Shown here piece by piece: positions 46,994 through 51,882 of a DNA stretch of 64,000 nt. Below the pieces are notes generated by a model, which ran no database searches, was not told the origin of the DNA, and worked only from the letters and a program-made list of their open reading frames with translations. Each line of letters begins with the position of its first letter. The stretch's first letter is position 1. The position numbers and the translations under genes were made by a program. Origin of the DNA: an uncultured Actinomycetes bacterium (GTDB taxonomy: Bacteria; Actinomycetota; Actinomycetes; Acidothermales; Acidothermaceae); the NCBI GenBank assembly GCA_963836475.1, contig CAWIJQ010000004.1, positions 81,775 to 145,774 on the forward strand, given 5' to 3'.

Positions 46994-47959
46994 GTGAGCC
47001 GACAGGAACACTGGCGACCGACCCACGACGATCCCCTGTTCATCCTCGCGATGGACCACCGCGAGTCGTTCGGCACCACGCTGTTTGGGGTGAAAGACGA
47101 TTCGCCGACCGCCGCGCAACGCGCGAGCATGGCGCAGGCGAAATCCCTTATCTACCAGGGCCTTACCCAGGCAGCGCCGCAGTTGCACGGCGGCCGAGCC
47201 GGCGTGCTTGTCGATGAGCAATACGGCCAGGACGTCATCACCGAGGCGATGCGCGACCCGATCGTGCTGGCCATACCGGTTGAGGCGAGCGGCCATGAGT
47301 GGTTCACGTTGCAGTGGCCCGAATCATGGCTCGAGCACGTGCAGCGCATCAACCCCAGCTACGTGAAAGTGTTGGTGCGCGACAACCCGACGTTCGACCC
47401 CGACCAACGCCGCCACCAATTTGACCAGCTCGCGCAGGTGAGCAAGGCGCTCGAATCGGTTGGCACTCCGCTCCTGTATGAGTTGCTCGTACCCGCGACT
47501 GACGAGCAACTCGCGTCGCTCGGCGGGCCGGCGAGCAGTGCGGTCGACCGCTACGACCGCGAGGTGCGCCCCGAGCTCGTCGTCCGGGTCATCGCCGACA
47601 ATCAGGACGCCGGAATCGAACCGAGGTTGTGGAAGGTGGAAGGCCTCGACACCGTCGAGGCCGCACGGACCGTCGCCGCGCAGGCGCAGGCCGACAACCG
47701 CGACACCAACCTGCTCGTGCTCGGTCGCGATGCCCCGGTCGATCGGCTCGACCGCTGGCTTCAGGTAGCCGCACAGGTCGACGCGTTCGTCGGCTTCGCG
47801 ATCGGCCGCAGCATCTGGGAAGATCCGCTGCGCGACTGGGTCAATCACGGCCTCGGCGACCAGCCGACGGCCGACCACATCAGCAATGCGTATCTCGCCT
47901 TCGCCCATCAATGGGTAAGCAGCACGACGAAGACCAGTAGTCAGGACGACGACCAGTAA
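46994..47959 (+). CDS. DUF2090-like / class I aldolase-fold protein (resembles the C-terminal domain of actinobacterial IolC proteins)
   Basis: Intact 321-aa ORF starting at a GTG preceded by AAAGGGAGG. FILAMDHRESF...GVLVDEQYG...VKVLVRDNP...LLYELLVP...WKVEG are patterns I associate with that family. The assignment is from memory. Confidence 0.5.
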   Translation: MSRQEHWRPTHDDPLFILAMDHRESFGTTLFGVKDDSPTAAQRASMAQAKSLIYQGLTQAAPQLHGGRAGVLVDEQYGQDVITEAMRDPIVLAIPVEASGHEWFTLQWPESWLEHVQRINPSYVKVLVRDNPTFDPDQRRHQFDQLAQVSKALESVGTPLLYELLVPATDEQLASLGGPASSAVDRYDREVRPELVVRVIADNQDAGIEPRLWKVEGLDTVEAARTVAAQAQADNRDTNLLVLGRDAPVDRLDRWLQVAAQVDAFVGFAIGRSIWEDPLRDWVNHGLGDQPTADHISNAYLAFAHQWVSSTTKTSSQDDDQ

Positions 47960-48900
47960 CGGTCGCCGGCCAGCACAAGGGCGGCAGCGCCGACCAACCC
48001 GGCATCGTTGCCGAGCCTCGCCGGCACGACCGTGAGATCCCGCAGAAAGTCCACCTTGGCGTGGTCGGCAATCGCCGCCCGCATCGGCGCAAACAACAGG
48101 TCGCCGGTCTGGGCCAACCCGCCGCCCACGACCACAAGCGTGACGTCGAGCAGCGCAGCGGCCGAGGCGATCGCAATACCGACGGCCCGCCCGGCGCGGT
48201 CGAACGCACGCATCGCCACCTCGTTGCCCGCGCGTGCGTCATCGGCAAGCGCACGAGCCGTCACCTCGCCGGTGGGCTGCCACCCGTGTTCGACCGCCCA
48301 CGCAGCGACGGCCGGACCGCGAGCAATGCCTTCCAGACAACCGCGACCGCCGCACGGGCACACCGCGCCGTCGGGATCGACGATGATGTGTCCGACGTGG
48401 CCACCGTTTCCGCTGTTGCCGTCGACCACTCGGCCGCCGAGCACAAGACCGCCGCCAACACCCGTCGACACAACCATGCCGAGCATGTCGTCGACTCCGA
48501 CACCGGCTCCACGCCAGTGCTCTGCGACTGCAAAGCAAATCGCGTCGTTGTGCAGGCGCACCGGCACGCCGAATGCATCACGCAGGCGTTGACGCAACGG
48601 AAACCCGCGCCAGCCAGGGATATTCAGCGGCGACACCTCGCCGACCGGCCAGGCCATCGGTCCACCGCACCCGACCCCTATCGCTGATACGTCACCGACA
48701 TCCGGCAGCGCCTCAATCGCGTGCCGCAAGGCCGTCCAGATGGTCTCGGCATCAGCGGCAGGCGGGGTCGGCGTCCGCGAACTTGTCATGACGCGCCCGT
48801 CGGCGGCGACGATACCGACCGCCATCTTGGTGCCACCAATGTCGATCGCGAGCACCGAACCGTCGGTCATGATGCCGTCGTTCATGACGCCGGCCGTCAT
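47941..48900 (-). CDS. ROK-family sugar kinase (no HTH domain)
   Basis: Intact 319-aa ORF with LAIDIGGTKMAVG, the ROK zinc motif GHIIVDPDGAVCPCGGRGCLE and VVGGGLA. The ATG overlaps the FIST gene stop (ATGA at 48897-48900). Confidence 0.85.
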   Translation of the reverse strand: MTAGVMNDGIMTDGSVLAIDIGGTKMAVGIVAADGRVMTSSRTPTPPAADAETIWTALRHAIEALPDVGDVSAIGVGCGGPMAWPVGEVSPLNIPGWRGFPLRQRLRDAFGVPVRLHNDAICFAVAEHWRGAGVGVDDMLGMVVSTGVGGGLVLGGRVVDGNSGNGGHVGHIIVDPDGAVCPCGGRGCLEGIARGPAVAAWAVEHGWQPTGEVTARALADDARAGNEVAMRAFDRAGRAVGIAIASAAALLDVTLVVVGGGLAQTGDLLFAPMRAAIADHAKVDFLRDLTVVPARLGNDAGLVGAAALVLAGDRYWSSS

Positions 48901-50069: not shown

Positions 50070-50220
50070 CCGGCCATCCTGTCGGCTCGCGGCCGCGCTG
50101 TCATGCCGACTGAAGCGGCATTCGGGTGTATTTGCACGGCTGCCGTTCCGCCGCCCGGTTCTGAAAGTTGATCACGGCTCAGTCGCGCGGTCGGTCGCGC
50201 GGTGAGTCCGGTCAGTCCGG

Positions 50221-51882
50221 TCAGTCGTCGACCTCAACACGGTCGATGGTCGTCCAATAGAAGCGCGACTGCGCGTTCTTTTCTTCGGCGACCTCGGCTT
50301 CCCATACGTGCTCGCCGCGCGTCAGCGGTCCGCTGTCCCATATCATCGCGTGTTCACGGCGGCTCACCGCGTACTGATCAACGACGGTCCGATCGGCACC
50401 ATCGAGGGAGACTAAGAGCATGCCGTGGTTTGCATCGCAGTTGGCAAAAACCCTGACGCGCGAGCCAACGAACCGCAGCCGCAAGCTGTCACCTGCGCTG
50501 ATCGAGCAGGAGTCGGCTTCGCCGGGCGCATTCTCGTCGTCACCGTGAATCCAGTCGCCGTTGTAGTCCAATTGGAAGGAGCCACTTCCGACGACGTTGT
50601 TCTGAATGATTGTTGTGCCGTTGACCAGCCGGGTCCCCCGCGCATTGCGCGCCTCGGTCACGGCAGCTGTTGCCGCAGCCAGCTGCATCGCGGGGTATTC
50701 CCGGAGTACCGGCTCGATCACCTGTTGCGCTTCAAGCAGCGCGTCCGATGCGATCTTGAGTCTGGCGTTGACGTAGGCCGACCTGCGAATGAAGTGGGAC
50801 ATCGCCTTGACGTTCGTCGCGATCGCGCTCGATTCGCTCGCGGCATCGGCGGCCACCCGGCTGATCTCGTAGACCGCCGCGTTTTGCTCAACGATCGCTG
50901 ACGAGATCGAGGCCTGGCTGGCGGTCACTTGCAGCGCCCCTTGGGTGATGCTGTGCAAAGCGGCGCGCGCAGCTGTCGATCCCTTCCCGATGTTGTCGAC
51001 TGTCTCCGACACCTCTTTGACGGCAACGGCCGTGGCGCCGGCCAGTTCCTTGACCTCAGCGGCGACGACCCCGAACCCGAGACCCGCTTCGCCTGCGCGG
51101 GCAGCCTCGATCGTGGCGTTGAGCGCGAGGAGCTTCGTCTGTGCTGCGATCGTCGCGATCATCTGCGCAACCGCCCCCACGTGATCGGACGCATCGCTTA
51201 GGTCCGAAACCGCACCGCTCGCTGCGGTGGCCTGTGCCGACGCCGCGTCGGCAACCTGCGAGGCGCCGGCAGCGTGCGTCGAGATTTCGCGAACGCTCTC
51301 GACCAACTGGGTCGACGATGCGGCGACGACATGCATCAGCTCGGACATTTCTCGGGTCCGGCCATCTGCGGCCGAGGCCTGGGCCGACGTTGTCTCGACA
51401 GCCTTGTTGGCGCGCTCGTGCGCCGCGTCCATTTCCAGGTGCTGTTTGGTGATGACGTTTTGTGTGGTCACTAGGGTGACGAGCACGTGCTCGGCGTCAG
51501 CCAACACGGCGTCGACTTCGCCCAGAAGTCGACCGAGTCCGTCCGTCTGGCCGTCATGAACCCGGACGCGCAAATCGCCGGACGCCGCAGTGTGCAACGC
51601 GTCTGTCGCAGTCCGCATTCGTCGGCCGTACGCTCGGTGCGACGACGTGGCAGCGGCGGCGAGACCGACCGCCGTGACGGCGCCAATGATCGCATTCGGC
51701 CACACAACGTTCACGGTCAACAGCGCGAGCGCGAGTATCAGGGCAGCGCGCGGCACAACGATCGGGGCCGAGAGGGCCACTTTCGTCAAGCCCCTCCCGA
51801 CAGCAACCTTGCGGGCGGACACGGTGGATCCTCTCTGCGGCCGAGCTTGCCTGGTCACTGGCACCACCCGCATCATCGGCAT
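50221..51882 (-). CDS. Membrane protein with a two-TM hairpin, HAMP, a methyl-accepting (MA) signalling domain and a C-terminal beta-rich domain of about 140 aa
   Basis: Start taken at MPMMRVVP (51882) inside ORF 50221..52512. TM segments are [14 protein letters not shown] and [14 protein letters not shown]. The HAMP-like region is ASGDLRVRV...[11 protein letters not shown]. The canonical MA hairpin tip is [37 protein letters not shown]. Confidence 0.8.
   Translation of the reverse strand: [553 protein letters not shown]

What the first reader, a model, noticed from the sequence alone, without database searches (positions are those of the whole stretch)
47941..51882. Orphan chemoreceptor-type module: HAMP-MA protein, stand-alone FIST protein and ROK kinase in one apparent operon
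Three same-strand genes lie in a completely clean sequence block. They encode a membrane protein with a minimal two-TM hairpin (no periplasmic sensor), a HAMP domain and a canonical methyl-accepting signalling hairpin ([31 protein letters not shown]). A stand-alone FIST_N/FIST_C protein follows 151 nt downstream, and then a ROK sugar kinase whose ATG overlaps the FIST stop (ATGA).

No cheA, cheW, cheY, cheR or cheB genes and no flagellar genes are visible in 64 kb. FIST is an input domain that lacks an output here, and the MA protein is an output scaffold that lacks an obvious input. My inference is that the pair forms a split sensor. Coupling to a sugar kinase, with a convergent aldolase-fold gene at 46994..47959, hints at carbohydrate-linked signalling rather than chemotaxis. 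I do not know of a characterised system with this composition.
Basis: partly seen in the sequence, partly recalled or inferred. Interest (0 to 1): 0.7.

Follow-up and report, generated by a model that had tools for sequence, protein, structure and literature searches.

The report
Sugar-linked chemoreceptor inserted beside FIST-ROK operon
The three genes are real, but they are not one dedicated module: a rare chemoreceptor with its own carbohydrate-binding-type end domain was inserted, in one soil actinobacterial lineage, in front of an ancient FIST–sugar-kinase gene pair that most relatives carry without any chemoreceptor.

Summary
All three genes exist on the minus strand. They are an MCP (50221-51822), a stand-alone FIST_N/FIST_C protein (48897-50069) and a ROK kinase (47941-48900, ATGA overlap). 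No che or flagellar gene is found in the 64 kb window.

It is a confidently predicted beta-sandwich (pLDDT 90) that resembles CBM6/35/36 and CE2_N modules. It defines a rare MCP family: 17 database proteins and 29 metagenome loci, always fused to the MCP signalling domain. Family members often sit beside sugar transporters, glycoside hydrolases, LacI/SorC regulators or sugar-acid dehydratases. So the MCP has its own likely input.

FIST-ROK is an old actinomycete operon that diverges from a MoxR-like AAA+/VWA pair. Among 80 species-representative genomes, 64 of 73 assessable loci have the AAA gene, 47 of 73 have ROK, and none has the MCP. FIST evolves about 15 times more slowly than the MCP (dN/dS 0.017 against 0.26-0.38) and keeps its own conserved 66-nt leader. 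Other MCP family members lack FIST.

The split-sensor idea is therefore not supported, while the carbohydrate link is. Whether Che proteins exist elsewhere in this genome could not be tested.

The parts
50221..51822 (-).
   Evidence: ORF. Pfam MCPsignal E 2.6e-22. Homologues are 533-535 aa. dN/dS 0.26-0.38 against L001/L002.
51649..51762 (-). Putative two-helix membrane hairpin (residues about 21-58; PN turn)
   Evidence: Kyte-Doolittle peaks of 2.2 and 1.7. AF2 helices 25-40 and 44-58, at low confidence. Absent in family members P0013-P0015.
51484..51636 (-). HAMP-like helix-connector-helix (residues about 63-113, with the G-D-L motif)
   Evidence: AF2 shows H63-80, a loop at 81-94, then a helix from 95. 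G82/D83/L84 are nearly invariant. NCBIfam MCP models align over their HAMP positions. The Pfam HAMP model gives no hit.
50701..51483 (-). Methyl-accepting signalling hairpin (residues about 114-374; tip at about 243)
   Evidence: Pfam MCPsignal. The tip residues N235...L260 are invariant across 18 family members. AF2 helices 95-242 and 244-374. Gap-free 190-aa alignment to E. coli Tar.
50224..50646 (-). C-terminal CE2_N/CBM6-35-36-like beta-sandwich domain (residues 393-533); the probable sensor
   Evidence: AF2 pLDDT 90.4, all-beta. Foldseek hits to 3nqh, MiXBM, CBM6E, CBM36, CE2 and CBM35 at E 2e-6 to 1e-3. Profile hit to 3nqh at E 7e-6. Weak Pfam CE2_N match. Wider family of 10,943 representative proteins; 34 of 40 sampled match CE2_N.
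50070..50220 (-). MCP-FIST spacer. The FIST-proximal 66 nt (50070-50135) are conserved and contain the inverted repeat ATGCCG-N7-CGGCAT (50103-50121)
   Evidence: Alignment of window, L001, L002, L099, L004 and L009. Upstream sequences listed. No clear terminator or promoter.
48897..50069 (-). Stand-alone FIST_N + FIST_C protein (390 aa)
   Evidence: Pfam. 98% identical in L001 and L002, dN/dS 0.017. Orthologues found across Actinomycetes.
47941..48900 (-). ROK-family sugar kinase (319 aa, no HTH), translationally coupled to FIST (ATGA)
   Evidence: Pfam ROK 2e-66. Closest solved structures are glucokinases 3vov and 3vgk, E 1e-42 to 1e-44. ATGA overlap. ROK lies downstream of FIST in 47 of 73 assessable genomes.
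46994..47959 (+). Convergent DUF2090 (class I aldolase-like, IolJ/tagatose-bisphosphate-aldolase related). Present only in the MCP-bearing lineage
   Evidence: Pfam DUF2090 3e-34. NCBIfam myo_kin_aldol aldolase part, E 1e-15. Found in L001, L002, L091 and L099 but in 0 of 80 genome loci.
51953..53425 (+). Divergent Rv0958-like MoxR-type AAA+ gene, with 2 frameshifts in this window
   Evidence: tblastn shows frames 2>3>2. Pfam annotation of the intact orthologues.
53461..55424 (+). Rv0959-like VWA gene, with 4 frameshifts in this window
   Evidence: tblastn shows frames 1>2>1>2>3. Single-base insertions relative to L001, L002 and L099.

Best explanation
The locus is a composite of two units with different histories.

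**Unit 1: the MCP.** It belongs to a rare actinobacterial family of cytoplasm-facing chemoreceptors. The sensor is not periplasmic. It is a C-terminal CE2_N/CBM6-35-36-like beta-sandwich attached after the signalling hairpin.
- The protein is held at the membrane by a minimal two-helix hairpin. Some relatives are fully soluble.
- Inferred: it senses an imported carbohydrate or carbohydrate derivative, or a sugar-loaded protein.
- Inferred: it passes this signal through a canonical hairpin tip to CheA/CheW encoded elsewhere in the genome.

**Unit 2: FIST-ROK.** This is an ancient, independently regulated actinomycete operon, transcribed divergently from a MoxR-like AAA+/VWA pair.
- Shown: in one Acidothermaceae-like sublineage the MCP gene was inserted between the AAA gene and FIST.
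- Shown: a DUF2090 aldolase-like gene was gained downstream in the same lineage.
- FIST is therefore not the MCP's missing input. Any functional link is at most a recent, lineage-specific association around sugar metabolism.
For: **The MCP has its own extra domain (shown)**
- The C-terminal domain is conserved in all 17 family proteins and in 29 of 29 metagenome loci, always fused to MCPsignal.
- The AF2 model has pLDDT 90.
- Foldseek and profile hits go to glycoside-hydrolase ancillary domains, CBM6, CBM35, CBM36, MiXBM and CE2.
- The wider homologous family is CE2_N-type and sits in GH30, GH43, GH5, GH26, GDSL and cohesin proteins.

**Carbohydrate context recurs in several unrelated neighbourhoods**
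- ABC sugar transporter, GH3, GH43 and LacI (L008, L097, L095).
- GH3 and LacI (L007).
- GH36, GH32, GH13, PfkB and aldolase (L003).
- ILVD/EDD dehydratase, SorC regulator, xylose-isomerase-like barrel and a PA14 polysaccharide-lyase-like protein.

**The MCP looks functional**
- The tip is canonical and invariant.
- It is under purifying selection, dN/dS 0.26-0.38.

**FIST-ROK is independent of the MCP**
- 64 of 73 assessable loci have the AAA gene divergent from FIST. 47 of 73 have ROK downstream. 0 of 80 have this MCP.
- L004 and L009 (FIST 84-87% identical) have AAA|FIST with no MCP.
- FIST dN/dS is 0.017.
- The conserved 66-nt FIST leader is kept downstream of the MCP and is partly shared with MCP-less L009.
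- Within the window's close MCP clade, two members are not followed by FIST. L090 (MCP 70% identical to the window's) is one; P0008 (59%) is the other.

**The MCP has a separate history**
- Its 3' two-thirds differ from L001 at dS 0.06-0.09. Its 5' third differs at dS about 1, and the flanking genes at 0.5-1.0.
Against: - No ligand binding has been shown. The fold match is moderate (TM about 0.6), and the Pfam CE2_N score is below threshold for the window protein (12.6 against 27.9 bits).
- The residues conserved in the domain are the family-wide structural motif, so no ligand site can be read from them.
- Carbohydrate neighbours are recurrent but not universal. L096 (Lhr helicase), L119 (PSP1/holB) and L090 lack them.
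- MCP-FIST-ROK-DUF2090 adjacency is stable across seven loci whose MCPs diverged to 63-88% identity. Co-selection within that lineage is therefore not excluded.
- No che gene was found in the window or in any of about 117 fetched loci. Coupling to CheA/CheW rests only on tip conservation and on a paper that lists Acidothermus cellulolyticus among flagellated actinobacteria (PMC2587704).
Confidence: 0.6

Rival explanations
1. In this lineage the stand-alone FIST protein is the ligand-binding partner of the MCP. This would be a split sensor analogous to NosP with its kinase, and ROK would link it to sugar phosphorylation.
For: - The genes are on the same strand, with a spacing of 82-176 nt.
- The adjacency is kept in window, L001, L002, L089, L091 and L099 although the MCPs diverged to 63-88% identity.
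- Stand-alone FIST proteins acting on a neighbouring signalling protein are documented for NosP-NahK (PMC8846402, PMC8738867).
Against: - FIST is present without the MCP in 80 of 80 sampled species genomes, including taxa that are non-motile to my knowledge, such as Nonomuraea, Streptosporangium and Thermobifida.
- MCP family members lack FIST elsewhere.
- FIST is 98% identical between MCP-bearing loci whose MCPs are 68-88% identical to the window's. It shows no sign of co-adaptation.
- FIST keeps its own conserved leader.
- The MCP has its own sensor-type domain.
- FIST scores 19.6 bits against a 450-bit cut-off for NosP.
Confidence: 0.12
2. The MCP works without a Che pathway. It would be a non-chemotactic signalling or scaffold protein that regulates carbohydrate metabolism, for example by acting on ROK, DUF2090 or a transcription factor, in a non-motile organism.
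For: - There are no che or flagellar genes in the 64 kb window or in the flanks of any family member examined.
- The family is consistently placed in metabolic loci.
- The EE methylation pair in the first methylation helix is replaced (S-T-Q-L-V-E-S) in the window clade but is present in sister clades (read from the alignment).
Against: - MCP genes are usually scattered away from che operons (general knowledge).
- Every tip residue used for trimer-of-dimers and CheA/CheW contacts is invariant, which is hard to explain without those partners.
- An A-x-x-E-Q-x-x-A methylation consensus remains in the second helix.
- The nearest non-family homologues are MCPs of Blastococcus, Geodermatophilus and Cellulomonas, genera that are motile to my knowledge.
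Confidence: 0.1
3. The C-terminal beta-sandwich is not a ligand sensor. It would be a protein-interaction, localisation or adaptation-enzyme-tethering module, and the receptor's real input would come through the membrane hairpin and HAMP-like region.
For: - CE2_N-type jelly rolls have no proven ligand in many proteins.
- The conserved residues are structural.
- The N-terminal hairpin and HAMP-like region evolve fast (51-59% identity, dN/dS 0.42), as expected for a specificity region.
- C-terminal tethers and PilZ or CZB domains are known on other MCPs (general knowledge).
Against: - The membrane hairpin is missing in P0013-P0015, while the C-terminal domain is kept in every full-length member. 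The only exception is P0009, which is truncated there.
- The fold's closest solved relatives are ligand-binding CBMs.
- The genomic context is carbohydrate-rich.
Confidence: 0.18

Closest known systems
Cytoplasmic or membrane-anchored MCPs with a C-terminal accessory or sensor domain. Examples from general knowledge: Helicobacter TlpD with a C-terminal CZB domain, and Azospirillum Tlp1 with a C-terminal PilZ domain.
   Same: A canonical MCP signalling hairpin is followed by an extra globular domain at the C-terminus. There is no periplasmic ligand-binding domain, so sensing would occur in the cytoplasm.
   Different: Here the domain is a CE2_N/CBM6-35-36-like beta-sandwich, a type otherwise found in secreted carbohydrate-active enzymes. 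I found no description of this architecture in one full-text search for MCP together with carbohydrate-binding module.
NosP-NahK type systems: a stand-alone FIST-FIST_C sensor next to its signalling partner (PMC8846402, PMC8738867).
   Same: A stand-alone FIST_N+FIST_C protein is encoded next to a signalling protein on the same strand.
   Different: - FIST scores 19.6 bits against the 450-bit NosP cut-off.
- The neighbouring signalling gene is lineage-specific, while FIST itself is ancient and otherwise paired with ROK and a divergent AAA+/VWA pair.
- No kinase partner is present.
CBM6/CBM35/CBM36 modules and the N-terminal jelly-roll of family 2 carbohydrate esterases. PDB examples: 8j3x, 2w1w, 7ay3, 2waa, 7ehg, 3nqh.
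   Same: The predicted fold is the same (Foldseek E 2e-6 to 1e-3, TM 0.5-0.65). There is a profile hit to the C-terminal domain of 3nqh (E 7e-6).
   Different: Sequence identity is only 12-21%. The Pfam CE2_N score is below threshold. The domain occurs as a single copy in a cytoplasmic signalling protein rather than in secreted enzymes. Ligand binding is untested.
ROK glucokinases (Thermus 3vov, Streptomyces griseus GlkA 3vgk).
   Same: Full-length ROK kinase fold without an HTH domain. The DxGGT and CxCGxxGCxE motifs are visible in the sequence.
   Different: Scores fall below the NCBIfam cut-offs for glucokinase (180 against 260 bits) and NanK (177 against 283 bits). The substrate is unknown, and the translational coupling to FIST has not been characterised.

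Membership tests
Methyl-accepting chemotaxis protein (MCP) | MCPsignal domain with a conserved hairpin tip (EAARAGExGxGFxVVAxEV) | tested here: met
   Pfam PF00015 at 79.9 bits against a 34.6-bit cut-off. The tip is invariant in 18 sequences. AF2 shows a long antiparallel hairpin.
Methyl-accepting chemotaxis protein (MCP) | HAMP domain between the membrane and the signalling domain | tested here: inconclusive
   The Pfam HAMP model gives no hit at E<=1. A helix, 14-residue connector and helix with a conserved G-D-L motif are seen. Full-length MCP models align over their HAMP positions.
Methyl-accepting chemotaxis protein (MCP) | Methylation consensus sites [ASTG]-x-x-[EQ]-[EQ]-x-x-[ASTG] | tested here: inconclusive
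   Read by eye from the alignment. A-I-V-E-Q-N-A-A is present in the C-terminal arm. The N-terminal-arm EE pair is present in P0010-P0014 but replaced in the window clade.
Methyl-accepting chemotaxis protein (MCP) | Signals through CheA/CheW encoded in the same genome | not testable with these tools
   Only 64 kb of the genome is available. No che gene was found in the window or in the fetched loci.
FIST (FIST_N + FIST_C) sensory proteins | Both Pfam domains above threshold, with no output domain | tested here: met
   PF08495 at 110.7 bits and PF10442 at 81.9 bits. The protein is 390 aa with nothing else detected.
NosP (NO-sensing FIST haemoprotein) | NCBIfam equivalog NF041558 at or above 450 bits | tested here: not met
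   19.6 bits.
Split sensor: stand-alone FIST plus adjacent signalling partner | Adjacency of the two genes conserved across relatives | tested here: not met
   0 of 80 genome loci with FIST have the MCP. 24 of 29 metagenome loci with the MCP family lack FIST. L090 and P0008, in the close clade, also lack it.
ROK sugar kinase | ROK domain over the full length, catalytic and Zn motifs, no N-terminal HTH | tested here: met
   PF00480 at 225 bits over residues 17-310. DIGGTK and CPCGGRGCLE are present in the translation. The best solved-structure hits are glucokinases.
ROK sugar kinase, specific equivalogs (glucokinase, NanK, NagK) | Score above the NCBIfam cut-off | tested here: not met
   180 against 260 bits (glucokinase subfamily), 177 against 283 bits (NanK), 116 against 380 bits (NagK).
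CE2_N / CBM6-35-36-type beta-sandwich | Sequence-profile membership (Pfam PF17996 at or above 27.9 bits) | tested here: not met
   The window domain scores 12.6 bits and the P0013 domain 20.1 bits. However, 34 of 40 profile-search relatives match CE2_N, with a best E of 7e-33.
CE2_N / CBM6-35-36-type beta-sandwich | Jelly-roll fold | tested here: met
   AF2 pLDDT 90.4. 25 PDB hits at E<=1e-3, nearly all CBM, CE2 or glycoside-hydrolase ancillary domains, with TM 0.5-0.65.
CE2_N / CBM6-35-36-type beta-sandwich | Binds carbohydrate | not testable with these tools
   Needs binding assays or a ligand-bound structure.

The most novel reading that the evidence does not exclude
In an Acidothermaceae-like lineage that lacks a Che pathway, the MCP has been recruited as a cytoplasmic carbohydrate-responsive signalling scaffold. 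Its CBM-like domain would be the sensor. It would work together with the FIST-ROK(-DUF2090) genes it was inserted next to. That would make it a chemotaxis-independent MCP circuit controlling sugar metabolism. The evidence does not exclude this, because the rest of the genome could not be searched and the adjacency is stable within the sublineage.
Probability: 0.08. Interest if true: 0.8.

Novelty: new variant of a known kind. Interest (0 to 1): 0.45.

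Why it matters
**If the C-terminal domain binds sugars.** Bacterial sugar chemotaxis is classically indirect, going through periplasmic binding proteins or the PTS. 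A receptor that reads imported carbohydrate in the cytoplasm through a CBM-type module would be a new input type for chemoreceptors. It would link polysaccharide-utilisation loci directly to behaviour in soil actinobacteria. That is directly testable with one small, well-folding domain.

**The FIST-ROK pair.** The analysis also exposes a very strongly conserved actinomycete gene pair of unknown function: a stand-alone FIST protein (dN/dS 0.017) translationally coupled to a ROK kinase and divergent from a MoxR-like AAA+/VWA pair. It is worth study in its own right.

**A caution on method.** Same-strand adjacency in a single genome suggested a module here. Comparative context then split that module into two units with different histories.

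Tried and rejected
- Exact look-ups of the window FIST protein and of its 100%-identical hit P0121 found no contig. The source genome could not be identified or walked.
- Rfam and tRNA scans of the window found nothing.
- The metagenome scan with the 13-sequence C-terminal alignment failed because no stretch was conserved enough. It worked with a 5-sequence alignment.
- The Pfam HAMP model found nothing in the N-terminal fragments.
- L081 has an MCP 4.5 kb upstream of FIST. It turned out to be an unrelated dCache/HAMP receptor with no che genes nearby.
- Literature searches gave nothing usable on FIST with chemoreceptors, MCP with carbohydrate-binding modules, or Acidothermaceae with chemotaxis or strain B102. 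The only relevant point was that A. cellulolyticus is listed among flagellated actinobacteria. The Acidothermus genome paper (PMC2694482) is not held.
- The promoter/terminator scan and RNA folding of the 151-nt spacer were inconclusive. No minus-strand site was found there, and the folding z-score was -1.6.
- No bacterial FIST structure was found by sequence. The only hit was weak, to human FBXO22.
- I did not use the third homologue search to look for CheA/CheW. No query from a close relative was available, and the 120-row output would have been filled by other families.

Full report
**1. What is in the sequence**

The three genes lie on the minus strand.
- The MCP ORF ends at 50221.
The closest homologues are 533-535 aa, and a GTG at 51822 preceded by GAGAGGA gives 533 aa. 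I take 50221-51822 as the gene.
- FIST is 48897-50069 (390 aa).
- ROK is 47941-48900 (319 aa). Its ATG overlaps the FIST TGA as ATGA.
- The MCP-FIST spacer is 151 nt.

Pfam confirms MCPsignal (E 2.6e-22), FIST (1e-31) with FIST_C (6e-23), and ROK (2e-66). The convergent gene at 46994-47959 is DUF2090, and the next gene is a PHP/PolX-like protein. NCBIfam places DUF2090 with the aldolase half of the IolC-IolJ fusion and with tagatose-bisphosphate aldolase. ROK falls below the cut-offs for every specific kinase, and FIST falls far below the NosP cut-off.

The Pfam HAMP model does not match, even at E<=1. An AF2 model of the whole protein (mean pLDDT 74) shows these elements:
- two short N-terminal helices (25-40 and 44-58, low confidence);
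- a helix (63-80), a 14-residue connector, and a helix from 95. The nearly invariant G-D-L motif (residues 82-84) opens the connector;
- one long antiparallel hairpin (95-242 and 244-374);
- a beta-domain.

Hydropathy supports a membrane hairpin with a two-residue PN turn in the window protein. Family members P0013-P0015 have no hydrophobic segment at all.

**2. No che or flagellar genes in the window**

tblastn with E. coli FlhA, FlhB, CheZ, CheY, CheB, CheR, CheW, CheA, MotA and MotB at E<=0.01 gave only the Tar-to-MCP match. That match is 190 aa long and has no gaps.

Pfam on 20 other ORFs shows a core chromosomal region. It includes TypA/BipA, SdhA/SdhB, YchF, RmuC, GlpX, UppS, threonine dehydratase and a glycogen-debranching-type enzyme.

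The best FIST hits are annotated as Acidothermaceae, Frankiales or Mycobacteriales MAGs. This points to an Acidothermaceae-like soil actinobacterium.

**3.

Residues 393-533 of the MCP are conserved in every full-length member of a small family (P0001-P0017). P0009 is truncated in this region.
- A profile of this region hits the C-terminal domain of the Bacteroides glycosyl hydrolase 3nqh (E 7e-6).
- AF2 folds it confidently as an all-beta sandwich (pLDDT 90.4, pTM 0.85).
- Foldseek against the PDB returns 3nqh, the xanthan-binding module MiXBM, CBM6E, CBM36, CBM35, CE2 esterases and similar domains. There are 25 hits at E<=1e-3, with TM 0.5-0.65.
- Pfam gives only a sub-threshold CE2_N match.
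- An exhaustive profile search finds 10,943 representative proteins at E<=1e-3. Most are large proteins with 2-14 tandem copies.
- Of 40 sampled hits, 34 match CE2_N. These proteins also carry GH30, GH43, GH5, GH26, GDSL esterase, cohesin, F5/8-C or Por_Secre_tail domains.

The domain is therefore a divergent member of a jelly-roll family typical of secreted carbohydrate-active enzymes. Here it is a single copy at the cytoplasmic end of an MCP.

The architecture is rare. It was found in 17 proteins out of 5.8 billion clusters. It was also found in 29 metagenome loci, each with the domain directly after an MCP signalling domain.

**4. Where the MCP family sits**

| Context | Loci |
|---|---|
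| AAA <-\|-> MCP -> FIST -> ROK <- DUF2090 -> PHP | window, L001, L002, L091, L099; L089 is cut off inside FIST |
| Sugar ABC transporter, GH3, GH43, LacI, MCP, holB-tmk | L008, L097, L095; L094 in part |
| ABC transporter, GH3, LacI, MCP | L007 |
| GH36, LacI, ABC transporter, GH32 and GH13 upstream; FBP aldolase, two PfkB kinases and SIS downstream | L003 (Acidothermaceae bacterium B102) |
| ILVD/EDD dehydratase immediately downstream | L105, L108, L114, L116 |
| SorC-type sugar-binding regulator upstream | L112 |
| Xylose-isomerase-like barrel downstream | L101 |
| PA14/polysaccharide-lyase-like secreted protein upstream | L109 |
| No carbohydrate theme | L096 (Lhr helicase), L119 (PSP1, holB), L090 (collagen-like small protein) |
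| SDR upstream, acetyltransferase downstream | P0008 contig |

- A pooled Pfam scan of 74 neighbouring ORFs put these families on top: MFS, ILVD_EDD, Zn-dependent dehydrogenases, LacI-type periplasmic-binding folds, SDRs, GH3 and PA14.
- No Che family appeared among the 25 listed.
- The carbohydrate association is recurrent across unrelated neighbourhoods but not universal.

**5. Where FIST sits**

FIST is far more widespread and more conserved than the MCP.
- It is 98% identical in L001 and L002, where the MCP is 88% and 68% identical.
- A scan of one genome per species found more than 596 loci.
- The best 80 (52-87% identity) span Acidothermaceae, Frankiales, Streptosporangiales (Nonomuraea, Streptosporangium, Actinomadura and others), Thermobifida, Nocardiopsis and Pseudonocardiales.

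Counts among those 80 loci:

| Feature | Count |
|---|---|
| Rv0958-like AAA+ gene divergent from FIST within 1 kb (usually followed by the Rv0959-like VWA gene) | 64 of 73 loci with enough upstream sequence |
| ROK on the same strand within 500 nt | 47 of 73 loci with enough downstream sequence |
| An MCP of this family | 0 of 80 |
| DUF2090 | 0 of 80 |

The closest MCP-less relatives, L004 and L009 (FIST 84-87% identical), have AAA <-|-> FIST -> PHP. A Frankiales MAG has AAA <-|-> FIST -> ROK, with FIST and ROK overlapping.

The ancestral block is therefore VWA-AAA | FIST-ROK. The MCP (upstream) and DUF2090 (downstream) were added in one sublineage.

**6. Rates and regulation**

Nei-Gojobori estimates among window, L001 and L002:

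| Gene | dN/dS |
|---|---|
| FIST | 0.016-0.019 |
| ROK | 0.09-0.23 |
| DUF2090 | 0.14-0.19 |
| MCP | 0.26-0.38 |

- All four are under purifying selection, so the MCP is a working gene. FIST is about 15-fold more constrained.
- The MCP is mosaic. Between window and L001, the signalling and C-terminal parts differ at dS 0.06-0.09. The N-terminal 115 codons differ at dS about 1, and the flanking genes at 0.5-1.0. This indicates recent recombination of the MCP 3' part, independent of the backbone.
- The 66 nt just upstream of FIST (50070-50135) are nearly invariant in window, L001, L002 and L099, while the rest of the spacer cannot be aligned.
- This stretch includes the inverted repeat ATGCCG-N7-CGGCAT at 50103-50121. 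A related palindrome and a CATGACA motif occur upstream of FIST in MCP-less L009.
- This fits a FIST-ROK promoter or operator that was retained when the MCP was inserted. It does not exclude read-through transcription.
- The consensus promoter/terminator scan and RNA folding of the spacer were uninformative.

**7. Interpretation**

Shown:
- the three domain assignments;
- the extra CBM/CE2_N-like domain and its exclusive fusion to MCPs in this family;
- the ancient FIST-ROK/AAA-VWA block;
- the lineage-specific insertion of the MCP;
- purifying selection on all four genes.

Inferred:
- The C-terminal domain is the receptor's input and responds to a carbohydrate-related cue in the cytoplasm.
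- Output goes to CheA/CheW arrays encoded elsewhere.
  - The tip residues N235, E239, R242, G244, G247, G249, F250 and E256 are invariant or nearly so.
  - The nearest non-family homologues are MCPs of Blastococcus, Geodermatophilus and Cellulomonas, genera that are motile to my knowledge.
  - A. cellulolyticus is listed among flagellated actinobacteria (PMC2587704).
- FIST-ROK has an MCP-independent role, still unknown.

The split-sensor model remains possible only as a recent co-option within one sublineage. I give it about 0.12.

**8. Comparison with known systems**

- The receptor works like other cytoplasm-sensing MCPs with a C-terminal accessory domain (TlpD-CZB and Tlp1-PilZ, from general knowledge). 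The domain type is new for MCPs as far as the one library search I ran shows.
- Stand-alone FIST sensors paired with a neighbouring signalling protein are known as NosP-NahK (PMC8846402, PMC8738867). This FIST is not NosP, and its conserved partners are ROK and AAA+/VWA, not the MCP.
- I therefore rate the finding as a new variant of a known kind, of moderate interest.
- The composition is real and uncharacterised. The proposed logic is mostly wrong, and the more interesting object is the CBM-tailed MCP family.

**9. Limits**

- The rest of the genome, and so the presence of Che proteins, could not be examined.
- No ligand can be deduced from the sequence.
- Gene calls in the metagenome loci used a simple GC3-based ORF picker.
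- Several metagenome loci are near-duplicates, so contexts were counted by type, not by locus.

Noticed in passing
window 51953-55424, also 39700-44100 and 55600-56700: The Rv0958-like AAA+ gene has 2 frameshifts and the Rv0959-like VWA gene has 4. Compared with L001, L002 and L099, the window has many uncompensated single-base insertions, mostly not in homopolymers. Examples are at 52831, 53264, 53275, 53538, 53690, 53702, 54430, 54826, 55244 and 55334. None lies in coding sequence between about 44.6 and 51.9 kb. These could be assembly errors or real pseudogenes; I could not decide.
   Followed up: partly
window 47941-50069 and 51953-55424; loci L004-L088: VWA-AAA <-|-> FIST-ROK is a widely conserved actinomycete block (64 of 73 and 47 of 73 assessable genomes). 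FIST is under extreme constraint (dN/dS 0.017). The function of this stand-alone FIST, translationally coupled to a ROK kinase and divergent from a MoxR-like pair, appears uncharacterised.
   Followed up: partly
window 50224-51483 compared with L001 10340-11599: The MCP is mosaic. Its signalling and C-terminal parts are almost identical to L001 (dS 0.06-0.09). Its first 115 codons (dS about 1) and the flanking genes (dS 0.5-1.0) are much more diverged. This suggests recent recombination or transfer of the 3' two-thirds of the gene.
   Followed up: partly
window 50070-50135 (inverted repeat at 50103-50121): A conserved 66-nt leader lies upstream of FIST and carries ATGCCG-N7-CGGCAT. It is nearly invariant in all MCP-bearing loci, and a related palindrome and CATGACA motif occur in MCP-less L009. 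It may be an operator or an RNA element.
   Followed up: partly
loci L018-L053, about 40-100 nt upstream of FIST: In Streptosporangiales, a different conserved motif (A/T)GTGGGGAGAATCGG recurs upstream of the FIST orthologue. The 7-mers within it recur in 19-27 of the 67 upstream regions compared. It is probably a lineage-specific promoter or regulatory site.
   Followed up: no
window 46994-47959: The DUF2090 aldolase-like gene was found only in MCP-bearing loci (window, L001, L002, L091, L099) and in 0 of 80 other FIST loci. It was therefore gained in the same lineage as the MCP. Together with ROK it could form a kinase-aldolase pair.
   Followed up: partly
window 2095-2874: An ORF with an rve integrase core domain (E 1.6e-8) suggests an insertion-sequence remnant near the start of the window.
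   Followed up: no
P0009 (ENA contig, 405 aa): One close family member ends inside the C-terminal domain with an out-of-frame tail. This is either a frameshifted copy or an assembly error.
   Followed up: no
loci L008, L092, L093, L095, L097, L098, L119: In several distant family members the MCP lies next to holB (DNA polymerase III delta') and a thymidylate kinase fused to an MFS_3 transporter. This may be the family's older chromosomal position.
   Followed up: no
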